From an uncultured bacterium (lineage in GTDB: Bacteria; Krumholzibacteriota; Krumholzibacteriia; Krumholzibacteriales; Krumholzibacteriaceae), in assembly GCA_964457905.1 (NCBI GenBank), contig CAYWGA010000002.1, forward strand, positions 3,475 through 67,474: a stretch of DNA of 64,000 bases. Reading direction: 5' to 3'. A program made the position numbers and the translations under genes. A model generated the notes under the pieces. It did not search any database. It saw nothing but the letters and a program-made list of their open reading frames with translations, and was not told the DNA's origin. Shown here one piece after another: positions 7,404 to 64,000 of this stretch; within the stretch, counting starts at the first letter, position 1, and each line of letters starts with the position of its first letter.

Positions 7404-7432
7404 TTGACTCACTATAAGCACCCCCTATATAT
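7404..7432 (+). promoter_or_regulatory. Sigma-70-type promoter (TTGACT-N17-ATATAT) upstream of riboswitch/nrdD
   Basis: TTGACT at 7404-7409, 17-nt spacer, A/T hexamer 7427-7432. Lies immediately 5' of the riboswitch aptamer. Confidence 0.4.
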
Positions 7433-7444
7433 TGTGCCTTGCCG

Positions 7445-7625
7445 CCGGTAACCACTCCATATATAGGAGTGCTTACAGGAACCCGGTGAGACTCCGGGAC
7501 TGCCCCGCAGCGGTGAGCAGGAACGAAAGCCGCACGATGGCACTGGCCCCCGCCAGGGAGCCGGGAAGCCGCGGCCGGTAGGCAGGTACCGATACCAGCC
7601 TGCGAGTCCGAAGACCTGCCGGTGG
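7445..7625 (+). promoter_or_regulatory. Cobalamin (B12) riboswitch in the 5' leader of nrdD
   Basis: Contains GGAACCCGGTGAGACTCCGGGACTGCCCCGCAGCGGTGA (the conserved AGGGAA-CGGTGnAAnTCCG-GC-G-CCCGC-AC-GTnA core), the B12-box-like GGCACTGGCC, GGGAAGCC, and the 3' AGTCCGAAGACCTGCC element. About 200 nt of expression platform precede the AAGGA RBS of nrdD. Confidence 0.75.
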
Positions 7626-7827
7626 CCCGCGAAGACAATCGCGGATATATGGGCCGAACCCTTCGAGGGAAGGACCGGCCTGACAGGCAGATTTTATGGC
7701 GCATATGCTTCTCGAATGACACGATGCCTCTCTGCCGCCAGGCGAACTTTTTCTCTCATATCGAAGGAAGCGAACGGGACCCGAGGGCATGGGGCCCCGG
7801 TAGCTTTCTGCGGACGAAAGGACATTC

Positions 7828-9972
7828 ATGCAGACCACCTCTACCAGGGGCAAGACGGATTCTGTCCGCGGCAGCTCGACGGTATCGTTTACTTCGATCC
7901 GTAAAAGAGACGGACGCATCGCCGACTTCGACGCCGACAAGATCACCAGGGCGATCCTCAAGGCGGGACGTGCCTCGGGAGAGTTCACCGAGGATATGGC
8001 GCGCAAGCTGACGATCCGTGTACTCGGCCTCACGCAGGTGATGGCGCAGAGCGAGGTCCCGACGGTCGAGGAGATCCAGGACATTGTCGAGGATGTGCTC
8101 CTTACATCCCCCTTCAAGAGGACGGCAAAGGCCTACATCCTCTACCGCGACCAGCACTCACGGATCAGAGAGATGATAAAGCAGGCCGACGTCGACCTGA
8201 TCGACAACTACCTCGAGAAGCTCGACTGGAAGGTCAAAGAGAACAGCAACATGGCCTACTCCCTTCAGGGCCTCAACAACTACATATCGAGCGAGGTCAG
8301 CAAGACATACTGGCTCAACAAGATCTACACGGCGGAGGTCCGGGAGGCGCATTCGTCCGGCGCGCTCCACATACACGACCTCGGCCTCCTCTCAGTCTAC
8401 TGCGTCGGGTGGGACCTTCACGACCTTCTCCGAAGCGGTTTCCGCGGAGCAGCGGGCAAAGCTGAAAGCTCGCCGGCGAAACACTTCAGCACCGCTCTCG
8501 GACAGATCGTCAATTTCTTCTACACGCTGCAGGGCGAGGCTGCCGGCGCGCAGGCATTCTCTAACTTCGACACCCTGCTGGCGCCGTTCATCAGATATGA
8601 CAAGCTTACATACAAGCAGGTAAAGCAGGCGCTGCAGGCATTCGTCTTCAACGTGAACGTCCCGACGAGGGTCGGCTTCCAGACCCCCTTTACAAATCTC
8701 ACCCTCGACCTCCAGCCTCCATCCGCTCTGGCGAAGGAGCCTGCCATCATCGGCGGCAAGCCTATGAAGGAAACGTACAGTGAATTCGGCAAGGAAATGG
8801 TGACGCTCAACCGCGCATTCCTCGAGGTACTCTCGGAGGGAGACGCCCGCGGCCGGGTCTTCACCTTCCCCATCCCGACCTACAACATATCGTCCGATTT
8901 CGACTGGGACGCTCCGGGCCTCGAGCGGCTCTGGGAAGTAACCGGCAAATACGGGATCCCCTACTTCGCCAACTTCGTGAACTCCGACCTCTCCCCCGAC
9001 GACGCACGGTCGATGTGCTGCAGGCTGCGGCTCGACATCAGGGCGCTCGAGAAGAGAGGCGGCGGCCTTTTCGGCGCCAACCCACTGACCGGTTCGATCG
9101 GCGTGGTGACGATCAACATGCCACGGATCGGGCATCTTTCCGAGACAGAGGAGGAATTCTTCGGCCGCCTCGGCCACCTGATGGAGATCGCTCGTACCAG
9201 TCTCGAGACAAAACGCAAGGTCCTCGAGGGATTCACAGAAAAGAACCTCTATCCCTACACGAAGTACTATCTGCGCAACATGCGCGAGAGGCACGACTGC
9301 TACTGGTTCAATCATTTCTCGACGATCGGACTGGTCGGCCTCAACGAGGCATGCCTCAACTTCCACGGTGTTACTATCGGCGACCCGAAGGGCGCCGAGT
9401 TCGCATGCAGGACCCTCGACTTCATGAGGGAAAAGCTGAGCGTGTTCCAGGAGGAAACGGGTAACTTCTACAACCTCGAGGCGACTCCAGCCGAGGGCAC
9501 CGCCTACCGTCTTGCGAGGATAGACCGCGAGAAGTTCCCCACCATCATGTGCGCCAACGACAAAGGTCCGGATAAAAACATCGAGCCGTTTTACACCAAC
9601 TCGAGCCAGCTTCCCGTCGATTTCACCGACGACATCTTCGAGCTGCTCGACCTGCAGGATGAGATCCAGTCGAAGTACACGGGCGGAACAGTCCTTCACG
9701 TCTTCCTCGGCGAATCCGTGGCTGACCCTGACGCGATAAAGAATTTCGTGCGCAAGGTGTGCAATGACTACAGGCTCCCCTACTTCACTATTTCCCCGAC
9801 CTTCTCAGTGTGCCCCGAACACGGATACATCCGGGGAGAGGTGGCCCGATGCCCCGACTGCGCGAGAGAGACTGAGATATATTCGCGCGTCGTCGGCTAC
9901 CTCAGGCCGGTCGACCAGTGGAACGAGGGGAAACAGGCCGAGTTCGAGATGAGGAAGAGGTATTCGATCTGA
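7828..9972 (+). CDS. nrdD: Anaerobic ribonucleoside-triphosphate reductase (class III RNR)
   Basis: N-terminal ATP-cone. C-terminal Zn-ribbon CPEHGY...CPDC and glycyl-radical motif SRVVGYLRP. Length 714 aa. Confidence 0.9.
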   Translation: MQTTSTRGKTDSVRGSSTVSFTSIRKRDGRIADFDADKITRAILKAGRASGEFTEDMARKLTIRVLGLTQVMAQSEVPTVEEIQDIVEDVLLTSPFKRTAKAYILYRDQHSRIREMIKQADVDLIDNYLEKLDWKVKENSNMAYSLQGLNNYISSEVSKTYWLNKIYTAEVREAHSSGALHIHDLGLLSVYCVGWDLHDLLRSGFRGAAGKAESSPAKHFSTALGQIVNFFYTLQGEAAGAQAFSNFDTLLAPFIRYDKLTYKQVKQALQAFVFNVNVPTRVGFQTPFTNLTLDLQPPSALAKEPAIIGGKPMKETYSEFGKEMVTLNRAFLEVLSEGDARGRVFTFPIPTYNISSDFDWDAPGLERLWEVTGKYGIPYFANFVNSDLSPDDARSMCCRLRLDIRALEKRGGGLFGANPLTGSIGVVTINMPRIGHLSETEEEFFGRLGHLMEIARTSLETKRKVLEGFTEKNLYPYTKYYLRNMRERHDCYWFNHFSTIGLVGLNEACLNFHGVTIGDPKGAEFACRTLDFMREKLSVFQEETGNFYNLEATPAEGTAYRLARIDREKFPTIMCANDKGPDKNIEPFYTNSSQLPVDFTDDIFELLDLQDEIQSKYTGGTVLHVFLGESVADPDAIKNFVRKVCNDYRLPYFTISPTFSVCPEHGYIRGEVARCPDCARETEIYSRVVGYLRPVDQWNEGKQAEFEMRKRYSI

Positions 9973-59205: not shown

Positions 59206-59544
59206 TTTATAGTGAGTAACGTTACTGTACACGAGGGTCGCTCTGAAAGTGTAAAGATTTTATTTGAAATGTCCCTGCCCGAAGACCGGGTTGAGGAAGC
59301 CCTTGAAGCCTGGCGCGCAGTGGGCCGATATATGGAAACGCAGGATGGTTTCCTGGGTTCTATGCTCTATCGCAACCGTCGCGATCCGCTCATGTTGATC
59401 AACCACGGCCGCTACACCAGCGTGGAAGCTTTCCTCAAGAGCGTCAAGTCGGACGAGTTCCAAGCCCTGTCACAACGGCTTACCGATCTTGGCGTGGAGC
59501 GTGTCGTCGGCCTGTATGACGAGGTACAAGCTTTCGGGGGCTGA
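59206..59544 (+). CDS. Antibiotic-biosynthesis-monooxygenase (ABM) domain protein; start codon uncertain
   Basis: FIVSNVTVHEGRSE...WRAVGRYMETQDGFLGSMLYRNRRDPLMLINHGRYTSVEAF fits the ABM ferredoxin-like fold. The upstream ATG of the track ORF overlaps opposite-strand lipoprotein genes, so a non-ATG start near 59206-59212 is more likely. Confidence 0.4.
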   Translation, partial: FIVSNVTVHEGRSESVKILFEMSLPEDRVEEALEAWRAVGRYMETQDGFLGSMLYRNRRDPLMLINHGRYTSVEAFLKSVKSDEFQALSQRLTDLGVERVVGLYDEVQAFGG

Positions 59545-59818
59545 TTCCTCGATAGGAGATCGGTGCTTCTTCCGCGCATAGAAGAAGTACTCGATCACGG
59601 CATTGCTTGCTGCAGATCATGCACCAGCCACACGGGGACCGCTGGTACTGGATAAAGAGGTGTTTCTTTGAAGGGAATATTTGGCTCCCCGGATGCAACC
59701 CTATTCATGAACACTCTCAGCTTTAAGGCTACATCACTAGCTTCAGGGGAATCCGCTAAGTGTAATAATAATGGGGACGGAATAAATGAAAGGCACGGCC
59801 GAAATACGCCGTCCAAAC

Positions 59819-60811
59819 TTAATTTCCTGCTTCCTCAAGATAGATTTTCAATCCACTCAGTGAACCGGGTAAGATTCCAATACGATTTTTAGAGACTTCA
59901 CCAAGCATTGATTTTGTTTTAAGATGATTGGCTGCTTCCTCAAGGGAATTGACTTCAAGAGTTATCGAAACTACCGCATCAAAATCACCTTGAACAATCC
60001 GGAGGCACTGATCATCGGCAAAATTGAACGTTACTTCTCCATCTACTGGTTTTCCGAACACAAGAGGAAACTCACCGAGGCAATCCTCCATATCCGATAT
60101 CCCAAGCGTGAGTTCCTTCATCCTTATTACAGAGAGCGGGCCTCCATTATCAGCCTCAAGTTGTTGATTCAGCGATTGTCTCATTTCAGCGTGAGTCCTC
60201 ATAACCATTTTATCGCCTTCCATAACTGGCATCGGCTGGTAATCGCATATAAACATCTTCAGGAGATCTCCATCAAACTGTGTGAGATAAACCAGATTCC
60301 ATAGCAGGGCGTTGCTCCCATCAGGTGTCGGAATAGACCAAGGCTCAACATCGCTGTGTTTTATCCCCCTGTCGTCAAGCTTTTGTATTGCATCCTCGAG
60401 TGCTACCGGCTCGAATGCGACACCGATATATCCGCAGTCGACGGGTGGTTTTTCGGCAATCTCATTTCCTGCCCAGGTCTCGAACTCCAGCGTGACATTC
60501 CCCAGGAAGATACCGCCAGTGTATCCATGTACAGACTTCAATTCCTTTCCTTTCAGGACATTCATCCCTTCCGGTCCCCAGAAAACTGGAAGTTGAAAAT
60601 CATCCCTAAAAATACGCATGAGTTCATCTATCTTCTCCTGTGAAGAAGCGAAGACGACTACATGATCCATGCGCCTCAGGATTATTTCTTCTTCATTTGC
60701 CGCAACAGAAGATGCATGACACCTCCCAATGACCGGAACTGTTACCATGATTATCGCTATCAATACATAGAGTGCATTTACAGACCGCCGACACATGCAT
60801 GAAATTCTCAC
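59819..60811 (-). CDS. Secreted two-module VOC (glyoxalase/bleomycin-resistance/dioxygenase-fold) protein
   Basis: Signal peptide. Two beta-alpha-beta-beta-beta-like modules (MDHVVVFASSQEKIDELMRIF... and LSVIRMKELTLGISDMEDCLGEF...). Region GC ~42%. Confidence 0.4.
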   Translation of the reverse strand: MRISCMCRRSVNALYVLIAIIMVTVPVIGRCHASSVAANEEEIILRRMDHVVVFASSQEKIDELMRIFRDDFQLPVFWGPEGMNVLKGKELKSVHGYTGGIFLGNVTLEFETWAGNEIAEKPPVDCGYIGVAFEPVALEDAIQKLDDRGIKHSDVEPWSIPTPDGSNALLWNLVYLTQFDGDLLKMFICDYQPMPVMEGDKMVMRTHAEMRQSLNQQLEADNGGPLSVIRMKELTLGISDMEDCLGEFPLVFGKPVDGEVTFNFADDQCLRIVQGDFDAVVSITLEVNSLEEAANHLKTKSMLGEVSKNRIGILPGSLSGLKIYLEEAGN

Positions 60812-60989
60812 AATTGTCTCCTTAATGTCAAAAGGGTGATTTCTCTCTTTTCGGTTTCTTTTTACGGTAAATAGTGTGTTTAGGTTACGTCCGTGCCAAT
60901 ATTTATGTTTCAGCTATTCTGTTTCTTCTGTCATTAAAATTCCAGTCGCTGATAAACAGGCCTACACGTGAAACGATGTTTGTTACTGG

Positions 60990-61376
60990 TCAAGTCCAGT
61001 CGTCGGTCATGCAACCGTTGATTGTACCCTCCGGTAGGGGCCCTAATGCTTTTTCCGCCATACTGACCTGCACTCCGTCGCCGGCGAACTTAAAACTTCT
61101 CTTCCAGAAGTTAATGTTTCCGACTTCATTAAGCGTCAGCTGAAACATGTCCTCGAATATCCAGCCCCCCTGAGCAACTGCCGGAATACCGTATTGGCCA
61201 GCACTGGCAAGCGGCAGATCTGCCAGGCCAATAGTGTAACGCCCCGAGTATCCCATGAAGTCGATGCTCAGTTCGGCGGTCACCGGATTCGGAAACGACA
61301 GTGTCATTTCCCTCAACCAGTATGAGTTCGGGTCGAAGACATAACGTTGGTTGGCTATTCGGTTCGCAAGAGCCAT
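60990..61376 (-). CDS. Hypothetical protein (128 aa)
   Basis: Non-overlapped ORF, co-oriented with neighbours. Confidence 0.3.
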   Translation of the reverse strand: MALANRIANQRYVFDPNSYWLREMTLSFPNPVTAELSIDFMGYSGRYTIGLADLPLASAGQYGIPAVAQGGWIFEDMFQLTLNEVGNINFWKRSFKFAGDGVQVSMAEKALGPLPEGTINGCMTDDWT

Positions 61377-61467
61377 AACAGAAAGATTAACTCTTGTCGT
61401 GGATCAGTTTAGTGGGGAAAGGTCAAAAATGCGTTAACCAAAAAGTCGTCAGTTCCGACCAATTATA

Positions 61468-61500
61468 ATTTGGCTCCGCATAGTGGACAGCTTTAGAACA
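61468..61500. repeat. Intergenic repeat copy (AATTTGGCTCCGCATAGTGGACAGCTTTAGAACA)
   Basis: 21 nt (CATAGTGGACAGCTTTAGAAC) are identical to the copy at 62778-62798. The TTGGCTCC head also occurs at 59683, 62720 and 62808, with a variant TTGTCTCC at 62768 and 60812. Confidence 0.55.
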
Positions 61501-61674
61501 GGACCTGTATTTGTCCGGATGGCGGCGGAGCAGGATGTGAATACGGCTACTATAAAGCAGAGGGATACGCTGAGTAGACAGCCGAATCCAGGGAAGACAT
61601 TGTTGAGGAATCCATGCTGATATAAAGATATTATTTGGCTGGATCAGGTCGATTTCGATAGCTTGCGTGCCAGC

Positions 61675-62574
61675 TCACCGCGAAGATGCCGGGGATGAGC
61701 TGGCGGAATTCGAACCGAGCTTCTTGAGCCCTTCTTTCAGCATCTTTTCCGCCTCTTTATCTCTTATTCTCTGGCTTTTCGCCCCGAGCACGACTGCGAT
61801 GACCCTGTGATCTTCATCGACCGCGGTAGCCGCGATGGAAAATCCGGCTGCCCAGAAAAATCCGGTCTTGAGCCCGTCACATCCCTCCATCGTTTTGAGC
61901 AGATTGTTGTGGTTCTCCATGAGGAAGGGCTCGGCCGCCTCTGTCCTGAAGGGACGCCGCCAGGTGGATGTATATCTCAACGCATCGGGCTTCTTCAGAA
62001 GCTCACGGCACAGCTTCGCGATATCACGCGGAGAAGAGACGTCGGGCAGCTGCCCCCTGCCCGGGGGGAGACCGTGCACCGAGTGGAAGACCGTATCCTT
62101 CATCCCTATCCTTTGCGCGCGCTTGTTCATCAGATCTACGAACACCTCTTTGCTGCCCATATAATGTATCGCAAGCGCCACAGCCGCATCATTCGCAGAC
62201 TGGACCATCAGCGCATACAACATCTCATCGACGGGAAACACTTCATTATCCTTTAGGTATACTTGGGATCCACCGATCGTGGATGACTTTGCCGTCACCC
62301 TGACCGGGTCATGGAGAGTCAGATGGTCGGCGTCGACCGCATCAAGGATCAGGAGCAGCACCATCAGTTTCGTGACGCTTGCCGGGTAAGCCCTGGCATC
62401 GGGCTCATCCTCGAAAAGCACATCTCCGGACGCCGCATCGATCACTATGGCGCCCGCATAAGGATCCCTTGACATAATATCCATTGATGCCGCTGAGCCT
62501 GAAACACATGCCAGCACCAGGATGACACCTGTAGTGAGCAGGGTCTTGTTAAGTTTCATATATCTTTCCATCAT
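61675..62574 (-). CDS. D-alanyl-D-alanine carboxypeptidase (S11, PBP5/6-like)
   Basis: SxxK ASVTK, SxN SANDAA, signal peptide, 299 aa. Confidence 0.75.
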   Translation of the reverse strand: MMERYMKLNKTLLTTGVILVLACVSGSAASMDIMSRDPYAGAIVIDAASGDVLFEDEPDARAYPASVTKLMVLLLILDAVDADHLTLHDPVRVTAKSSTIGGSQVYLKDNEVFPVDEMLYALMVQSANDAAVALAIHYMGSKEVFVDLMNKRAQRIGMKDTVFHSVHGLPPGRGQLPDVSSPRDIAKLCRELLKKPDALRYTSTWRRPFRTEAAEPFLMENHNNLLKTMEGCDGLKTGFFWAAGFSIAATAVDEDHRVIAVVLGAKSQRIRDKEAEKMLKEGLKKLGSNSASSSPASSR

Positions 62575-62700
62575 TCCTCTGTCCGGCGTACTGTAAAGCG
62601 GCGAAAGTATATGATACGGCCTCGTCGAGCGTCAATGATTAGCTCTGTGCCGGGGATGATAACGAGGGCAGCCTGCAGATACCGGATCACTGCTGGGGGG

Positions 62701-62860
62701 CGCTGTTCAAAGGTTCCATATATAGAATTGGCTCCCCATAGTAAACTTTATTAGAACTGCCTGAATATAGAGTTGTCTCCCATAGTGGACAGCTTTAGAA
62801 CTGCTCGAGTATAATATTGGCTCCCGATTATGCTCTGGGAAGGGTTCCATCAACTATTTT
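62701..62860. repeat. Tandem array of ~2.5 imperfect ~50-bp units carrying TTGGCTCC(C)CATAGT...TTAGAACTGC
   Basis: Units begin near 62701 (GGTTCCATATATAGAATTGGCTCCCCATAGTAAACTTTATTAGAACTGCC), 62752 (...TTGTCTCCCATAGTGGACAGCTTTAGAACTGC) and 62806 (TTGGCTCCCGATTATGC...GGTTCCATCAAC). Confidence 0.55.
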
Positions 62861-62989
62861 TAGAAGCATTTTAGACACCAGAGTCTCAACTTTCAAAGTG
62901 TCCTGATTACAGCAAAGCTTGCGCACCCATATAGATTCGTACATCGCTGTTCCAGTCAGGTTGATTAATTGTTAGGGGATTAGCCTGAC

Positions 62990-63976
62990 TTATTCTACTT
63001 TTGATGGAGTTAGATTTCTTTCTGTTCTGTTAAGTGCAATTTCAGCTATTCTATGTATTGTTTCCTGATAAGTAATATTAGTATTGATAAAACATGTCCT
63101 TGTAAAATAACTGCAATCTATATCTCTGGGACGCTGTGTCATTCCGGGAACCAGATTTGCTTCAAGAAAATACGGGCATTTATGATCATCCATTAGAATA
63201 TCAATTCTGCCGTAATCTCTCGCACCTAAAGCGATAAAAGCATTTTTAGCGATTGCAACAACACTTTCATATATATCTTTATCATCTATTGCAATTACCT
63301 TTTCTTTATTTTCACTTTTTGTTTTATAGCCAAGAATATTATTGGCTGATTTATTATCCGAAACAATTATTTCTACTGGCATGGTTATTGGTTCACCATT
63401 CGAATCTGAACCTAGTATTGAAACTGTAAATTCTCTCCCACTTATATAATTTTCCACTAAAGCTGATTGTTTAAATAAAGTGCAAATATTATGAATTTTC
63501 TCTTGATAACTTTCAAAATCATAAACCACGGAATCACTTCCAATGCCTTTACTATCACCTTCACGCAGGGGTTTGATAAATAAAGGAAATTTGACAGGAA
63601 GTTCATTAGCACTTTTGTACATGCCGGGGTTGGCAACAAAAAAGGAAGGTGTGTTTATTCCAAATTCTTTTACTCGCATTTTCGCTTCATTTTTACTGAA
63701 TTCTAATTCAATGGCATCTTTGCCTGAACCAGTATAATTTATATCAGCTTCTTCCATATATTCTGATATCCATATTTTATCTTCTCGGTTTTTATTTATT
63801 TCACCTCCATTAAATATTACATATTTAATTCCGGTGAATATTAAATCAGGTTTCCTAAAAACAATATTATTCAGATCTGATATTGTTCTAACGATATTAA
63901 AATTGACATGAGTATATTTTTCAATTAAAGCATTGTAAACACTTCTACAGTTTTCTACAGAACCGAACCCCATCAT
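62990..63976 (-). CDS. D-alanine-D-alanine-ligase-family ATP-grasp enzyme in ~33% GC DNA; may extend 5' beyond the window
   Basis: DINYTGSG...AKMRVKEFGINTPSF, ENYISGREFTVSILG and GARDYGRIDILMDD...YFLEANLVPGMT align with Ddl ATP-grasp motifs. The reading frame is still open upstream of the ATG at the window edge. Confidence 0.6.
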   Translation of the reverse strand: MMGFGSVENCRSVYNALIEKYTHVNFNIVRTISDLNNIVFRKPDLIFTGIKYVIFNGGEINKNREDKIWISEYMEEADINYTGSGKDAIELEFSKNEAKMRVKEFGINTPSFFVANPGMYKSANELPVKFPLFIKPLREGDSKGIGSDSVVYDFESYQEKIHNICTLFKQSALVENYISGREFTVSILGSDSNGEPITMPVEIIVSDNKSANNILGYKTKSENKEKVIAIDDKDIYESVVAIAKNAFIALGARDYGRIDILMDDHKCPYFLEANLVPGMTQRPRDIDCSYFTRTCFINTNITYQETIHRIAEIALNRTERNLTPSKVE

Positions 63977-64000
63977 GGCTAAATCAGCAATATCGGTTGC

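What the first reader, a model, noticed from the sequence alone, without database searches (positions are those of the whole stretch)
59560..64000. Low-GC, cassette-like island: four co-oriented genes separated by a recurring TTGGCTCC...TTAGAAC repeat, with cell-wall and VOC functions
GC falls from ~58% to ~42% (59560-62990) and ~33% (62990-64000). Four minus-strand genes are separated by unusually long spacers (300-415 bp). The genes are a secreted two-module VOC/glyoxalase-like protein, a 128-aa hypothetical, an S11 DD-carboxypeptidase, and a Ddl-family ATP-grasp ligase. The spacers carry a repeat family with copies at 59683, 61468-61500, a 2.5-unit tandem array at 62701-62860, and a TTGTCTCC variant at 60812. 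A 7-bp inverted repeat (AGTCAGG...CCTGACT, 62954-62990) abuts the ligase stop. One gene per unit, recombination-site-like repeats, and foreign base composition resemble an integron or CALIN-type cassette array or another site-specific acquisition hotspot. The cargo (a D-Ala-D-X ligase paralog, a DD-carboxypeptidase, a bleomycin-resistance-fold protein) hints at peptidoglycan-precursor remodelling or antibiotic tolerance.
Basis: partly seen in the sequence, partly recalled or inferred. Interest (0 to 1): 0.65.

Follow-up and report, generated by a model that had tools for sequence, protein, structure and literature searches.

The report
Serine-recombinase gene-cassette array, not an integron
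The low-GC stretch is the end of a tandem array of small, integrase-less mobile gene cassettes, each ending in a 29-base site copied from the 3' end of tRNA-Asn. A family of large serine recombinases uses that same site, so the array behaves like an integron but is built on a different enzyme and site.

Summary
The repeat is real and confined to this island. The 60812 "variant" is only a ribosome-binding site, and the GC figures were overstated.

**What the repeat is.** It is an asymmetric attachment site, GTTCTAAWRNNGTYYACTA + TGGGGAGCCA, not an attC hairpin, promoter or REP element. It ends each cassette.

**Evidence that cassettes move.**
- The DD-carboxypeptidase cassette occurs at 88-99% identity in at least five contexts. 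Homology stops inside the 10-nt core.
- A 97%-identical relative has a different cassette order.
- About 80 non-redundant sites in Krumholzibacteriota MAGs and metagenomes form similar one-gene arrays, with per-gene GC of 33-64% and genes in either orientation.

**The likely enzyme.**
- The core equals the acceptor strand plus CCA of tRNA-Asn.
- Six of six related large serine recombinases (58-100% identity) read through this core. One abuts an intact tRNA-Asn. One sits in a complete ~9.2-kb element bounded by the sites.
- The cassette arm is 5 nt longer than the tRNA arm, the attP/attB offset described for serine integrases.

**Verdict.**
- The integron reading is rejected; "site-specific acquisition hotspot" is supported.
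- It is a new variant of tRNA-targeting islands and SCC-like arrays.
- Trans-mobilisation by the recombinase is inferred, not shown.
- No recombinase lies in the window, and the array head lies beyond base 64000.

The parts
59681..59712 (-). Terminal, diverged attachment site (minus strand: GTTCATGAATAGGGTTGCATCC GGGGAGCCAA). It marks the end of the array next to host DNA, where the ABM-domain gene ends at 59544.
   Evidence: Sequence read. The core is detected by the repeat finder D7 and weakly by the repeat HMM. The composition change here is shown. The arm resembles diverged arms in L037 and L012.
59713..61469 (-). Cassette 1, 45.7% GC, carrying two genes with no site between them
   Evidence: It is bounded by the sites at 61470-61499 and 59681-59712. 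The same cassette start (CCAAATTATAATTGGTCGGAACTGACGAC) follows a different upstream cassette in L035:1774.
59819..60811 (-). Gene for a 330-aa protein with an N-terminal hydrophobic helix and a two-domain VOC (HPPD / extradiol dioxygenase-like) fold; function unknown
   Evidence: No Pfam, NCBIfam or PDB sequence match. Only 4 homologues were found. AlphaFold model pLDDT 63, pTM 0.65. Foldseek against PDB gives 1sqi_A at E 8.9e-11 and also 1mpy_A.
60990..61376 (-). Gene for a 128-aa protein of unknown function
   Evidence: ORF. No Pfam, NCBIfam or PDB match. The identical protein is called on 7 contigs.
61470..61499 (-). Attachment site ending the DD-carboxypeptidase cassette (GTTCTAAAGCTGTCCACTA TGCGGAGCCA A)
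   Evidence: The junction alignment A1 shows homology to L017 and L012 ending at ...GGAGCCA. Several short metagenome contigs break here.
61500..62727 (-). Cassette 2, 53.9% GC: the DD-carboxypeptidase cassette
   Evidence: It is about 94% identical to L017:1462-2752 and L012:3334-4474 while the DNA outside differs. Its end is seen in at least five contexts: window, L017, L045, L040 and L024.
61675..62574 (-). Gene for a 299-aa S11 serine DD-carboxypeptidase. It has a signal-peptide-like N-terminus and is shorter than the 389-403-position DacA/DacD models.
   Evidence: Pfam Peptidase_S11 at E 6.3e-58. NCBIfam DacD and DacA models match at 144 and 124 bits, far below their cut-offs.
62714..62801 (-). 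Two cargo-less 44-nt units: site 62773-62801 plus right arm, then site 62728-62757 plus right arm
   Evidence: the repeat finder D1 and D3. HMM hits at E 3e-11 and 6e-11. The sequences are shown in register.
62817..62867 (-). Degenerate site at the end of the ligase cassette (core GGGAGCCAA, arm interrupted)
   Evidence: Sequence. The exact TTGGCTCC is found, and there is a weak HMM hit at 62806-62827.
62868..64000 (-). Cassette 3 (partial), about 33% GC: the Ddl-family ATP-grasp ligase cassette. It continues about 460 nt beyond the window to a block of 4-5 sites, then a LysE-family exporter cassette.
   Evidence: L002 overlaps window 61515-64000 at 99.96% and extends 1422 nt further.
62990..64000 (-). 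Gene for a D-Ala-D-Ala-ligase-family ATP-grasp enzyme, cut by the window end (354 aa in full). It is a paralogue of unknown specificity.
   Evidence: Pfam Dala_Dala_lig_C at E 3.4e-24. The best PDB Ddl match is E 1.5e-12. The NCBIfam Ddl subfamily model gives 109 bits against a cut-off of 243.

Best explanation
Window 59681-64000 is the distal end of a tandem array of small, integrase-less mobile cassettes. Each cassette carries one or two genes.

**Site.** Each cassette ends in a 29-nt attachment site. A 19-nt arm (GTTCTAAWRNNGTYYACTA) is followed by a 10-nt core (TGGGGAGCCA). The core is the acceptor 3' strand, discriminator and CCA of tRNA-Asn.

**Proposed mechanism.**
- A family of large serine recombinases (LSRs) is carried on integrative elements with a rolling-circle Rep gene; the one complete example (L029) is about 9.2 kb. 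These elements integrate at the 3' end of tRNA-Asn, or at stray copies of that end.
- Strand exchange falls inside the core.
- Later arrivals integrate at the same kind of site, so units pile up head to tail.
- Units without a recombinase are excised, reinserted and reshuffled in trans by the same enzyme.

**Cargo in this window.** A Ddl-family ligase, an S11 DD-carboxypeptidase, and a 128-aa protein together with a VOC-fold protein. These are three independent acquisitions of different base composition.

**Shown versus inferred.**
- Shown: the site, the exact boundaries, the shuffling, the tRNA-Asn origin, and the physical link between the LSR gene and the core.
- Inferred: that this LSR moves the small cassettes, and how it handles hybrid sites.
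For: **1. Exact cassette boundaries**
- The DD-carboxypeptidase unit is about 94% identical in the window, L017 and L012, with unrelated DNA outside it.
- Upstream homology starts at TGGGGAG. Downstream homology ends at GGGGAGCCA.

**2. Flank swapping across all sites**
- Twenty-eight site pairs share the downstream flank but not the upstream one. Sixty-four pairs show the reverse. In most pairs homology starts at the first 1-5 bases of the flank next to the site.
- In clean pairs, sequences that share a downstream flank last differ at site position 15. Those that share an upstream flank first differ at positions 26-28. This brackets exchange to ACTATGGGGA(G).

**3. Cassette order differs between close relatives**
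- L045 is 97% identical to L002 and the window but is ordered ligase, carboxypeptidase, LysE. L002 and the window are ordered LysE, ligase, carboxypeptidase, 128-aa.

**4. Similar arrays elsewhere**
- L011 and L012 have 6-8 co-oriented sites with one gene between neighbours. Gene GC ranges from 34% to 64%, and genes lie in either orientation relative to the site.
- L027, L039, L030, L032, L045 and L046 show the same pattern.
- A genome scan places the site in Krumholzibacteriota-type MAGs. Thirty-two further metagenome loci carry it.

**5. tRNA-Asn origin**
- An intact tRNA-Asn ends in GGTTCAAGTCCTACCTGAGGAGCCA at the junction in L054.
- An intact tRNA-Asn heads an array in L020.

**6. Link to the LSR**
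- L029 holds a ~9.2-kb element bounded by a tRNA-type arm plus core on one side and a cassette-type arm plus core on the other.
- Its 501-aa LSR (Resolvase, Recombinase, Zn_ribbon_recom) abuts the core.
- All six homologues examined (58-100% identity) read through GGGGAGCCA at their 3' ends.
- C-terminal LSR remnants lie right after cores in L030 and L027.

**7. Arm length**
- The cassette arm is 19 nt and the tRNA-type arm is 14 nt. This is the 5-bp inward shift of the zinc-ribbon-domain motif in attB relative to attP reported for serine integrases (PMC3783163).

**8. Reproducibility**
- The window's arrangement is recovered in independent assemblies from five or more samples.
Against: - No recombinase is encoded in the 64-kb window (tblastn), and none was found in the flanks of L017, L014 or L019. 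Action in trans is therefore assumed.
- Only the left arm and GGGGAG are conserved over 78 sites. The right half is cassette-specific. Canonical LSR attP and attB sites have two recognisable half-sites.
- Canonical LSRs recombine only attP with attB. Repeated insertion into hybrid sites needs relaxed specificity, or a directionality factor that was not identified.
- Cargo-less 44-nt and 29-nt units are unexplained.
- The terminal site at 59681-59712 is diverged, and its right flank does not match the usual right arm.
- The head of the window's array, whether tRNA-Asn or a stray fragment, was not reached.
- All data are metagenome assemblies.
- Taxonomy of the window itself is inferred from shared cassettes and sites, not shown.
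Confidence: 0.68

Rival explanations
1. Decay plus homologous recombination. The units would be remnants of full-size LSR elements that lost their recombinase. Their reshuffling between arrays and genomes would come from RecA-type recombination across the conserved 29-48-nt repeats, for example after DNA uptake. The serine recombinase would not act on small cassettes.
For: - LSR 3' remnants lie at the start of some cassettes.
- Many cassettes carry an extra CCAATTCTAYATATARGCA copy upstream of the arm, which lengthens the shared homology.
- No circular intermediate was seen.
- Canonical LSRs do not act on hybrid sites (PMC3783163).
Against: - Breakpoints fall only between site positions 16 and 26, although conserved sequence extends further left.
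- In L017 a single cassette sits between a tRNA-type arm and unrelated DNA. The left-hand site there has only the tRNA-type arm and shares no more than the core with a cassette site.
- The full LSR element uses exactly the same junction.
Confidence: 0.2
2. Integron or CALIN. The repeats would be attC sites recombined as folded single strands by an IntI tyrosine recombinase lying beyond the window.
For: One gene per unit, co-oriented repeats and heterogeneous GC.
Against: - The spacers fold no better than shuffles as single-stranded DNA (z -0.84 to +1.09).
- There is no imperfect palindrome and no RYYYAAC...GTTRRRY pair. The conserved part is 29 nt and one-sided.
- Gene orientation relative to the site varies.
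- The site is a tRNA-Asn 3' end, and the linked enzyme is a serine recombinase.
- No Phage_integrase domain was found in the flanks scanned.
Confidence: 0.03
3. Genome-wide REP/MITE-like or regulatory repeat (promoter, operator or terminator) with no role in gene mobility.
For: - The repeat lies in intergenic spacers.
- A TATAAT-like stretch follows some cores. One promoter-like match lies at 62786-62815, but on the strand opposite the genes.
Against: - There are no copies in the other 59.5 kb of the window.
- In other genomes the copies are clustered in arrays.
- Orientation relative to genes varies.
- Promoter-like matches are at the chance level, 11 found against 8.7 expected.
- No RNA or DNA structure is predicted, and there is no Rfam match.
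- Flank swapping occurs exactly at the core.
Confidence: 0.03
4. Assembly artefact. Metagenome assemblers would have joined unrelated fragments at a short shared repeat, creating apparent cassette shuffling.
For: Several short contigs break at the repeat.
Against: - The window's order is recovered in independent assemblies of several samples, on contigs that span two or three sites (L001-L004).
- The alternative contexts lie on long contigs from other assemblies: L017 on a 54-kb contig and L012 on a 21.6-kb contig.
- The repeat is only 29-44 nt long.
Confidence: 0.03

Closest known systems
SCC / SCCmec composite islands of staphylococci (CcrAB/CcrC large serine recombinases)
   Same: - A large serine recombinase is the linked enzyme. 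CcrB and CcrA are its best NCBIfam matches.
- Units integrate at the 3' end of a housekeeping gene.
- Units accumulate in tandem, separated by short direct att repeats.
- The arrays include recombinase-less units and defence cargo that can be mobilised in tandem (PMC11470126).
   Different: - The target is tRNA-Asn, not rlmH.
- The LSR scores 104 bits against a CcrB cut-off of 900, so it is not a Ccr orthologue.
- Units here are mostly single genes of 0.4-1.7 kb rather than multi-kilobase elements.
- The host is an uncultured phylum.
- The autonomous element carries a rolling-circle Rep gene.
Tycheposons and other tRNA-targeting genomic islands
   Same: - Integration occurs at tRNA genes.
- Islands are built by successive integrations, separated by partial tRNA copies.
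- Degenerate remnants and flexible cargo are present.
- A minority of tycheposon-type elements use large serine recombinases (10.1101/2020.12.28.424599).
   Different: - Tycheposons are units of several kb with their own integrase and replication modules, and 910 of 937 use tyrosine recombinases.
- Here the bulk of the array is integrase-less one-gene units with a strongly conserved 29-nt site.
- The cassette arm is not a plain tRNA copy. It is a 5-nt-longer attP-type variant.
Integrons and CALINs
   Same: Functionally alike: arrays of small, mostly single-gene cassettes of foreign composition, each with one recombination site. Cassettes are reshuffled between genomes.
   Different: - There are no attC hairpins and no IntI.
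- The sites are not recombined as folded single strands, as far as structure prediction can tell.
- Cassette genes lie in either orientation, and the spacers could carry their own promoters (not tested).
- The platform is a tRNA 3' end rather than attI.
CIMEs / integrative mobilizable elements with accretion-mobilisation (from my own knowledge of the Streptococcus ICESt3 literature; not checked here)
   Same: Recombinase-less units flanked by att sites depend on a related autonomous element for movement.
   Different: - Those systems use tyrosine integrases and larger units.
- No arrays of dozens of one-gene cassettes have been described for them.

Membership tests
Integron / CALIN | attC sites: 57-141-nt imperfect palindromes with R''/L''...L'/R' boxes (RYYYAAC...GTTRRRY) that fold as single-stranded hairpins | tested here: not met
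   Single-stranded DNA folding of the spacers on both strands gives z -0.84 to +1.09 against shuffles. The repeat finder reports no inverted-repeat pair flanking the sites. The 78-site consensus is one-sided and 29 nt long.
Integron / CALIN | IntI-type tyrosine recombinase next to the array (complete integron) | tested here: not met
   No Phage_integrase domain was found among the window ORFs or flanking genes scanned. The array head of the window lies beyond base 64000 and could not be read, so this is strictly 'not found in what was read'. CALINs lack intI by definition.
Integron / CALIN | Cassette ORFs mostly co-oriented with their site and expressed from a common promoter | tested here: not met
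   Genes have the same orientation as the sites in the window. Most are opposite in L011 and L012, where the orientations are mixed.
Large-serine-recombinase integrative element | Recombinase with Resolvase, Recombinase and zinc-ribbon domains, encoded next to the attachment site | tested here: met
   This holds for the related autonomous element, not for the window itself. L029:9801-11306 matches Resolvase at 3e-23, Recombinase at 1.5e-17 and Zn_ribbon_recom at 1e-10. Six of six homologues read through the core. The window holds no LSR.
Large-serine-recombinase integrative element | attP and attB of about 50 and 40 bp, each with two half-sites around a central dinucleotide; zinc-ribbon motif 5 bp closer to the centre in attB | tested here: inconclusive
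   The left arms fit: 19 nt for the cassette type against 14 nt for the tRNA type, both starting GTTC.AA (PMC3783163). The right halves are not conserved, and no inverted copy of the motif was found (and my own inspection).
Large-serine-recombinase integrative element | Recombination activity of the enzyme on these sites | not testable with these tools
   This needs an in vivo or in vitro recombination assay.
tRNA-targeting genomic island (tycheposon-like) | Integration at the 3' end of a tRNA gene, with units separated by partial copies of that tRNA | tested here: met
   An intact tRNA-Asn lies at the junction in L054 and heads an array in L020. The core equals the acceptor strand plus CCA. 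Stray 3' fragments occur in L029, L057, L017 and L019. The window itself has no tRNA.
tRNA-targeting genomic island (tycheposon-like) | Shared tycheposon hallmark integration and replication gene set | not tested
   No tycheposon profiles were available. The replication gene here is a rolling-circle Rep (REP_ORF2-G2P).
SCC elements | CcrA/B or CcrC recombinases and integration at rlmH (orfX) | tested here: not met
   The CcrB model scores 103.8 bits against a cut-off of 900, and CcrA scores 94 against 700. The target is tRNA-Asn.
REP / MITE-type dispersed repeat | Many copies dispersed through the genome, usually palindromic | tested here: not met
   There are no copies in window 1-59600. Copies elsewhere are clustered in arrays. 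The repeat is not palindromic.

The most novel reading that the evidence does not exclude
Krumholzibacteriota may carry a gene-capture platform that works like an integron but is driven by a large serine recombinase.
- Dozens of different single-gene cassettes would each carry only a one-sided 29-nt site mimicking the tRNA-Asn 3' end.
- A recombinase encoded on a separate small replicon-like element would excise, insert and shuffle them in trans, at tRNA-Asn and at secondary sites.
- That would require a serine integrase that works routinely on hybrid, asymmetric sites.
Probability: 0.4. Interest if true: 0.75.

Novelty: new variant of a known kind. Interest (0 to 1): 0.6.

Why it matters
- **A third route to cassette arrays.** If the inference holds, this is a way to build arrays of single-gene cassettes that is distinct from integrons (tyrosine recombinase, folded attC). 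It is also distinct from Xer-dependent dif modules, which I know from the literature and did not test.
- **A departure from known serine-integrase behaviour.** These enzymes are valued in genome engineering for strict attP x attB directionality. A natural system that stacks many units behind one 29-nt portable site suggests relaxed or regulated site choice. It could inspire multiplex landing-pad designs.
- **A view of an uncultured phylum.** The arrays show how it acquires accessory genes. Cargo seen includes abortive-infection and restriction genes, sulfatases, cell-wall enzymes and secreted proteins.
- **A caution for annotation.** The ligase, carboxypeptidase and VOC genes here are separate acquisitions and should not be read as an operon.

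Tried and rejected
- **tRNA and RNA families at the insertion sites.** ARAGORN finds no tRNA in the window or at the tRNA-like arms of L017, L019 and L029. Rfam finds nothing there. I treat these arms as stray tRNA-Asn 3' fragments, not genes.
- **Promoter reading of the repeat.** Rejected because gene orientation varies and promoter-like matches are at chance level.
- **CRISPR-like reading.** Rejected on inspection, because only 14 nt separate the tandem copies.
- **Xer/dif-like reading.** I compared the site by eye with dif consensus sequences recalled from memory. The partial resemblance (GTAAACT, TAGAAT) has the wrong architecture and no inverted inner arms. Dropped and not formally tested.
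- **IS91-type rolling-circle ends (GTTC target).** Rejected because exchange maps to the core, not to GTTC.
- **Extending the source contig.** Look-ups by the window's proteins listed a 50-200-kb contig but did not return it. P0121 was 'not on record'. Only 1422 nt beyond the window were recovered, through L002.
- **Taxonomy.** Cluster look-up gave no taxon names. tblastx of the rest of the window against all loci found only one related contig, L026, at about 78% amino-acid identity.
- **Viral contigs.** The only site match is the Undibacterium locus. LSR relatives there are at most 48% identical over the full length.
- **Distant homologue of the 330-aa protein.** The 44%-identical homologue (L058-L060) has no sites nearby.
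- **Literature.** I found no description of such arrays or of serine recombinases in Krumholzibacteriota within the searchable library.

Full report
**1. The observation**

Region 59560-64000 holds four minus-strand ORFs:
- a 330-aa protein at 59819-60811;
- a 128-aa protein at 60990-61376;
- a 299-aa Peptidase_S11 DD-carboxypeptidase at 61675-62574 (E 6e-58);
- a Ddl-family ATP-grasp ligase from 62990 to the window end (Dala_Dala_lig_C, E 3e-24).

The ligase is cut by the window. Contig L002 overlaps the window at 99.96% identity and extends 1422 nt further. It shows a 354-aa protein.

Composition does shift, but less than stated:

| Segment | GC |
|---|---|
| window 1-59559 | 55.7% |
| 59560-62990 | 48.6% |
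| DD-carboxypeptidase gene | 55.0% (host-like) |
| 62990-64000 | 31.7% |

The spacers are 178, 298 and 415 nt.

The repeat is real:
- Full copies lie at 61470-61499, 62728-62757 and 62773-62801.
- A degenerate copy lies at 62817-62867 and a diverged copy at 59681-59712.
- A 30-nt pattern finds 2 matches where 0.00 are expected.
- Nothing credible occurs in the remaining 59.5 kb.

The "variant at 60812" is a GGAGACAA ribosome-binding site in front of the GTG start of the 330-aa gene.

The 7-bp inverted repeat at 62954-62990 exists but is unremarkable (z -1.42).

The VOC fold of the 330-aa protein cannot be seen by sequence. A moderate model does support it. The model has pLDDT 63 and pTM 0.65. 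Foldseek's best hits are 4-hydroxyphenylpyruvate dioxygenase at E 9e-11 and catechol 2,3-dioxygenase.

**2. The repeat marks cassette boundaries**

I read the repeat in the orientation of the window's genes. It is GTTCTAAWRNNGTYYACTA, then TGGGGAGCCA, sometimes followed by ATTCTATATAYAGGCA. Tandem copies are 44 nt apart.

A scan of one genome per species found the site almost only in Krumholzibacteriota-type MAGs. Two hits fell outside them (L016, L018). A metagenome scan added 32 loci.

The DD-carboxypeptidase gene with its flanks is about 94% identical in the window, in L017 and in L012, while the surrounding DNA is unrelated. Alignment of the junctions shows upstream homology beginning at TGGGGAG. 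Downstream homology ends at GGGGAGCCA.

Across all sites:
- 28 pairs share the downstream flank but not the upstream one, and 64 pairs show the reverse.
- In most pairs homology starts at the first 1-5 bases of the flank next to the site.
- The end of the carboxypeptidase cassette is followed by five different sequences (window, L017, L045, L040, L024).
- In clean pairs the polymorphisms bracket the exchange to site positions 16-26, ACTATGGGGA(G).

L045 is 97% identical to the window's strain but has the order ligase, carboxypeptidase, LysE. The window and L002 have LysE, ligase, carboxypeptidase, 128-aa.

L011, L012, L027, L039 and others show 3-8 co-oriented sites with one gene between neighbours. 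Per-gene GC runs from 33% to 64%, and genes lie in either orientation.

The window's own order is recovered in independent assemblies of several samples. This argues against chimeric assembly.

**3. It is not an integron and not a dispersed repeat**

- The spacers do not fold better than shuffles as single-stranded DNA on either strand (z -0.84 to +1.09).
- No inverted boxes flank the site.
- Over 78 non-redundant sites only the left arm and GGGGAG are conserved.
- No tyrosine recombinase was seen in the flanks scanned.
- Promoter-like matches are at chance level.
- No Rfam family matches.

**4. Origin of the site and the likely enzyme**

L029 contains a ~9.2-kb low-GC element. One end is CGAGAGTTCAAGTCCTACC|TGGGGAGCCA. 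The other is GTTCTAAAGCTGTCCACTA|TGGGGAGCCA plus ATTCTGTATATAGGCA.

The element encodes:
- a 501-aa large serine recombinase whose 3' end runs through the core;
- a rolling-circle Rep protein;
- an HTH-helicase;
- a DpnII-type restriction enzyme;
- a GTPase with an 8xMP protein.

I fetched five homologues of this recombinase, 58-74% identical. Together with L029, all six read through GGGGAGCCA at their 3' ends.

In L054 the sequence beyond the core is an intact tRNA-Asn (GTT). Its 3' end is GGTTCAAGTCCTACCTGAGGAGCCA. In L020 an intact tRNA-Asn heads an array.

So the core is the acceptor strand, discriminator and CCA of tRNA-Asn. The 14-nt "chromosomal" arm is its T-arm.

L029, L057, L017 and L019 carry only 3' fragments of that tRNA, which act as secondary sites. 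L019 looks like an unoccupied one.

Remnants of the recombinase C-terminus lie directly after cores in L030 and L027.

The cassette arm places GTTC.AA 19 nt from the core. The tRNA arm places it 14 nt away. A 5-bp inward shift of the zinc-ribbon-domain motif in attB relative to attP is the published model for serine integrases (PMC3783163). Counting about 24-25 nt from the outer end of the cassette arm puts the centre at GGA/GAG, inside the interval mapped. This last step is my inference.

**5. Mechanism proposed**

- *Shown:* the site, its tRNA-Asn origin, the exact and reshuffled boundaries, and the physical coupling of an LSR gene to the core.
- *Inferred:* LSR-bearing elements integrate at tRNA-Asn or at stray copies of its 3' end. 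Further units integrate at the sites so created. Recombinase-less units are moved in trans.

Points against or still open:
- No recombinase is in the window.
- Right half-sites are not conserved.
- Canonical LSRs do not use hybrid sites. CcrAB in SCCmec is a precedent for tandem units moved by large serine recombinases (PMC11470126).
- The cargo-less 44-nt and 29-nt units are unexplained.

The main rival is that the units are decayed elements reshuffled by homologous recombination across the repeats. The narrow breakpoint interval speaks against it. So does the single insertion in L017, where the left-hand site shares only the core with a cassette site. It is not excluded.

**6. Cargo**

- The ligase is a distant Ddl paralogue: 109 bits against a cut-off of 243, with the best PDB Ddl match at E 1.5e-12.
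- The carboxypeptidase is a short S11 enzyme, below the equivalog cut-offs.
- They sit on separate cassettes, and the carboxypeptidase cassette travels without the ligase. A joint peptidoglycan-remodelling role is therefore speculative.
- Cargo elsewhere is varied. It includes AIPR, AbiTii, a MORC-like ATPase, a DpnII enzyme, a sulfatase, GPP34, a methyltransferase, FG-GAP and T9SS-tail proteins, and a dermatopontin-domain protein.

**7. Comparison and novelty**

The closest known systems:
- *SCC composite islands.* They share a large serine recombinase, tandem units and recombinase-less members. They differ in target and unit size, and the enzyme here is not a Ccr orthologue.
- *Tycheposon-type tRNA islands.* They share partial tRNA repeats between successive integrations. 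Most use tyrosine recombinases, and their units carry their own integrase.

In function the array resembles an integron, but it fails both defining tests for one.

I found no description of such arrays in the searchable literature. That library is incomplete.

I rate this a new variant of a known kind, with interest 0.6. The strongest novel reading is a serine-recombinase-driven integron analogue. I give it a probability of about 0.4.

Noticed in passing
window 7429-7637 (+): Cobalamin riboswitch, 95.5 bits against a gathering score of 31.5. It lies upstream of a 714-aa ORF at 7828-9972.
   Followed up: no
L018 3305-3333 (Undibacterium umbellatum NZ_JACOFX010000020); same DNA in L033 and L061: A betaproteobacterial isolate carries GTTCTAAAAGTGTTCACTATGGGGAGCCA, which matches the site 5 nt beyond the search pattern. 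It lies between a prophage (terminase, portal) and a MASE1-CHASE histidine kinase gene. There is no LSR and no second copy within 8 kb. It could be chance or a distant relative of the system.
   Followed up: partly
L029 11290-11320; L054 2000-2020; L057 2455-2475: The recombinase ORF reads through the attachment core: its last codons TGG CTC CCC are the core, and the TAG stop lies in the tRNA-derived arm. Integration therefore changes the enzyme's C-terminus depending on what lies beyond the core.
   Followed up: partly
window 62714-62801; L002 794-960; L022 498-630; L046 4452-4541; L045 3384-3486: There are runs of cargo-less units of 44 nt (arm, core, right arm) and 29 nt (arm, core ending GCA). 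These are too short to be recombination circles. Many cassettes also carry CCAATTCTAYATATARGCA just upstream of their arm.
   Followed up: partly
L029 2110-11310: The ~9.2-kb recombinase element also carries a DpnII/MboI-type restriction enzyme with no methylase identified among the ORFs scanned. It also has an Arf/Roc-like GTPase next to an 8xMP membrane protein, an HTH_17-ResIII helicase and a rolling-circle Rep. The Rep, 115-aa ORF and LSR module recurs in L053, L054, L055 and L057.
   Followed up: partly
L017 2614-3100, L014 2573-3019, L036 54-110: A conserved non-coding stretch (GGCGRACCGRTGGTGCAGG..., with a 7-bp GC hairpin) lies just upstream of the tRNA-like arm at a chromosomal insertion site. 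That site sits between a TPR gene and a diacylglycerol-kinase-family gene. There is no Rfam match and no tRNA call.
   Followed up: partly
window 61444-61460 (-): A small hairpin followed by a T-run (GGTCGGAACTGACGACT TTTTGG) lies right after the core at the start of the 128-aa cassette. A similar sequence lies next to the recombinase gene in L053.
   Followed up: no
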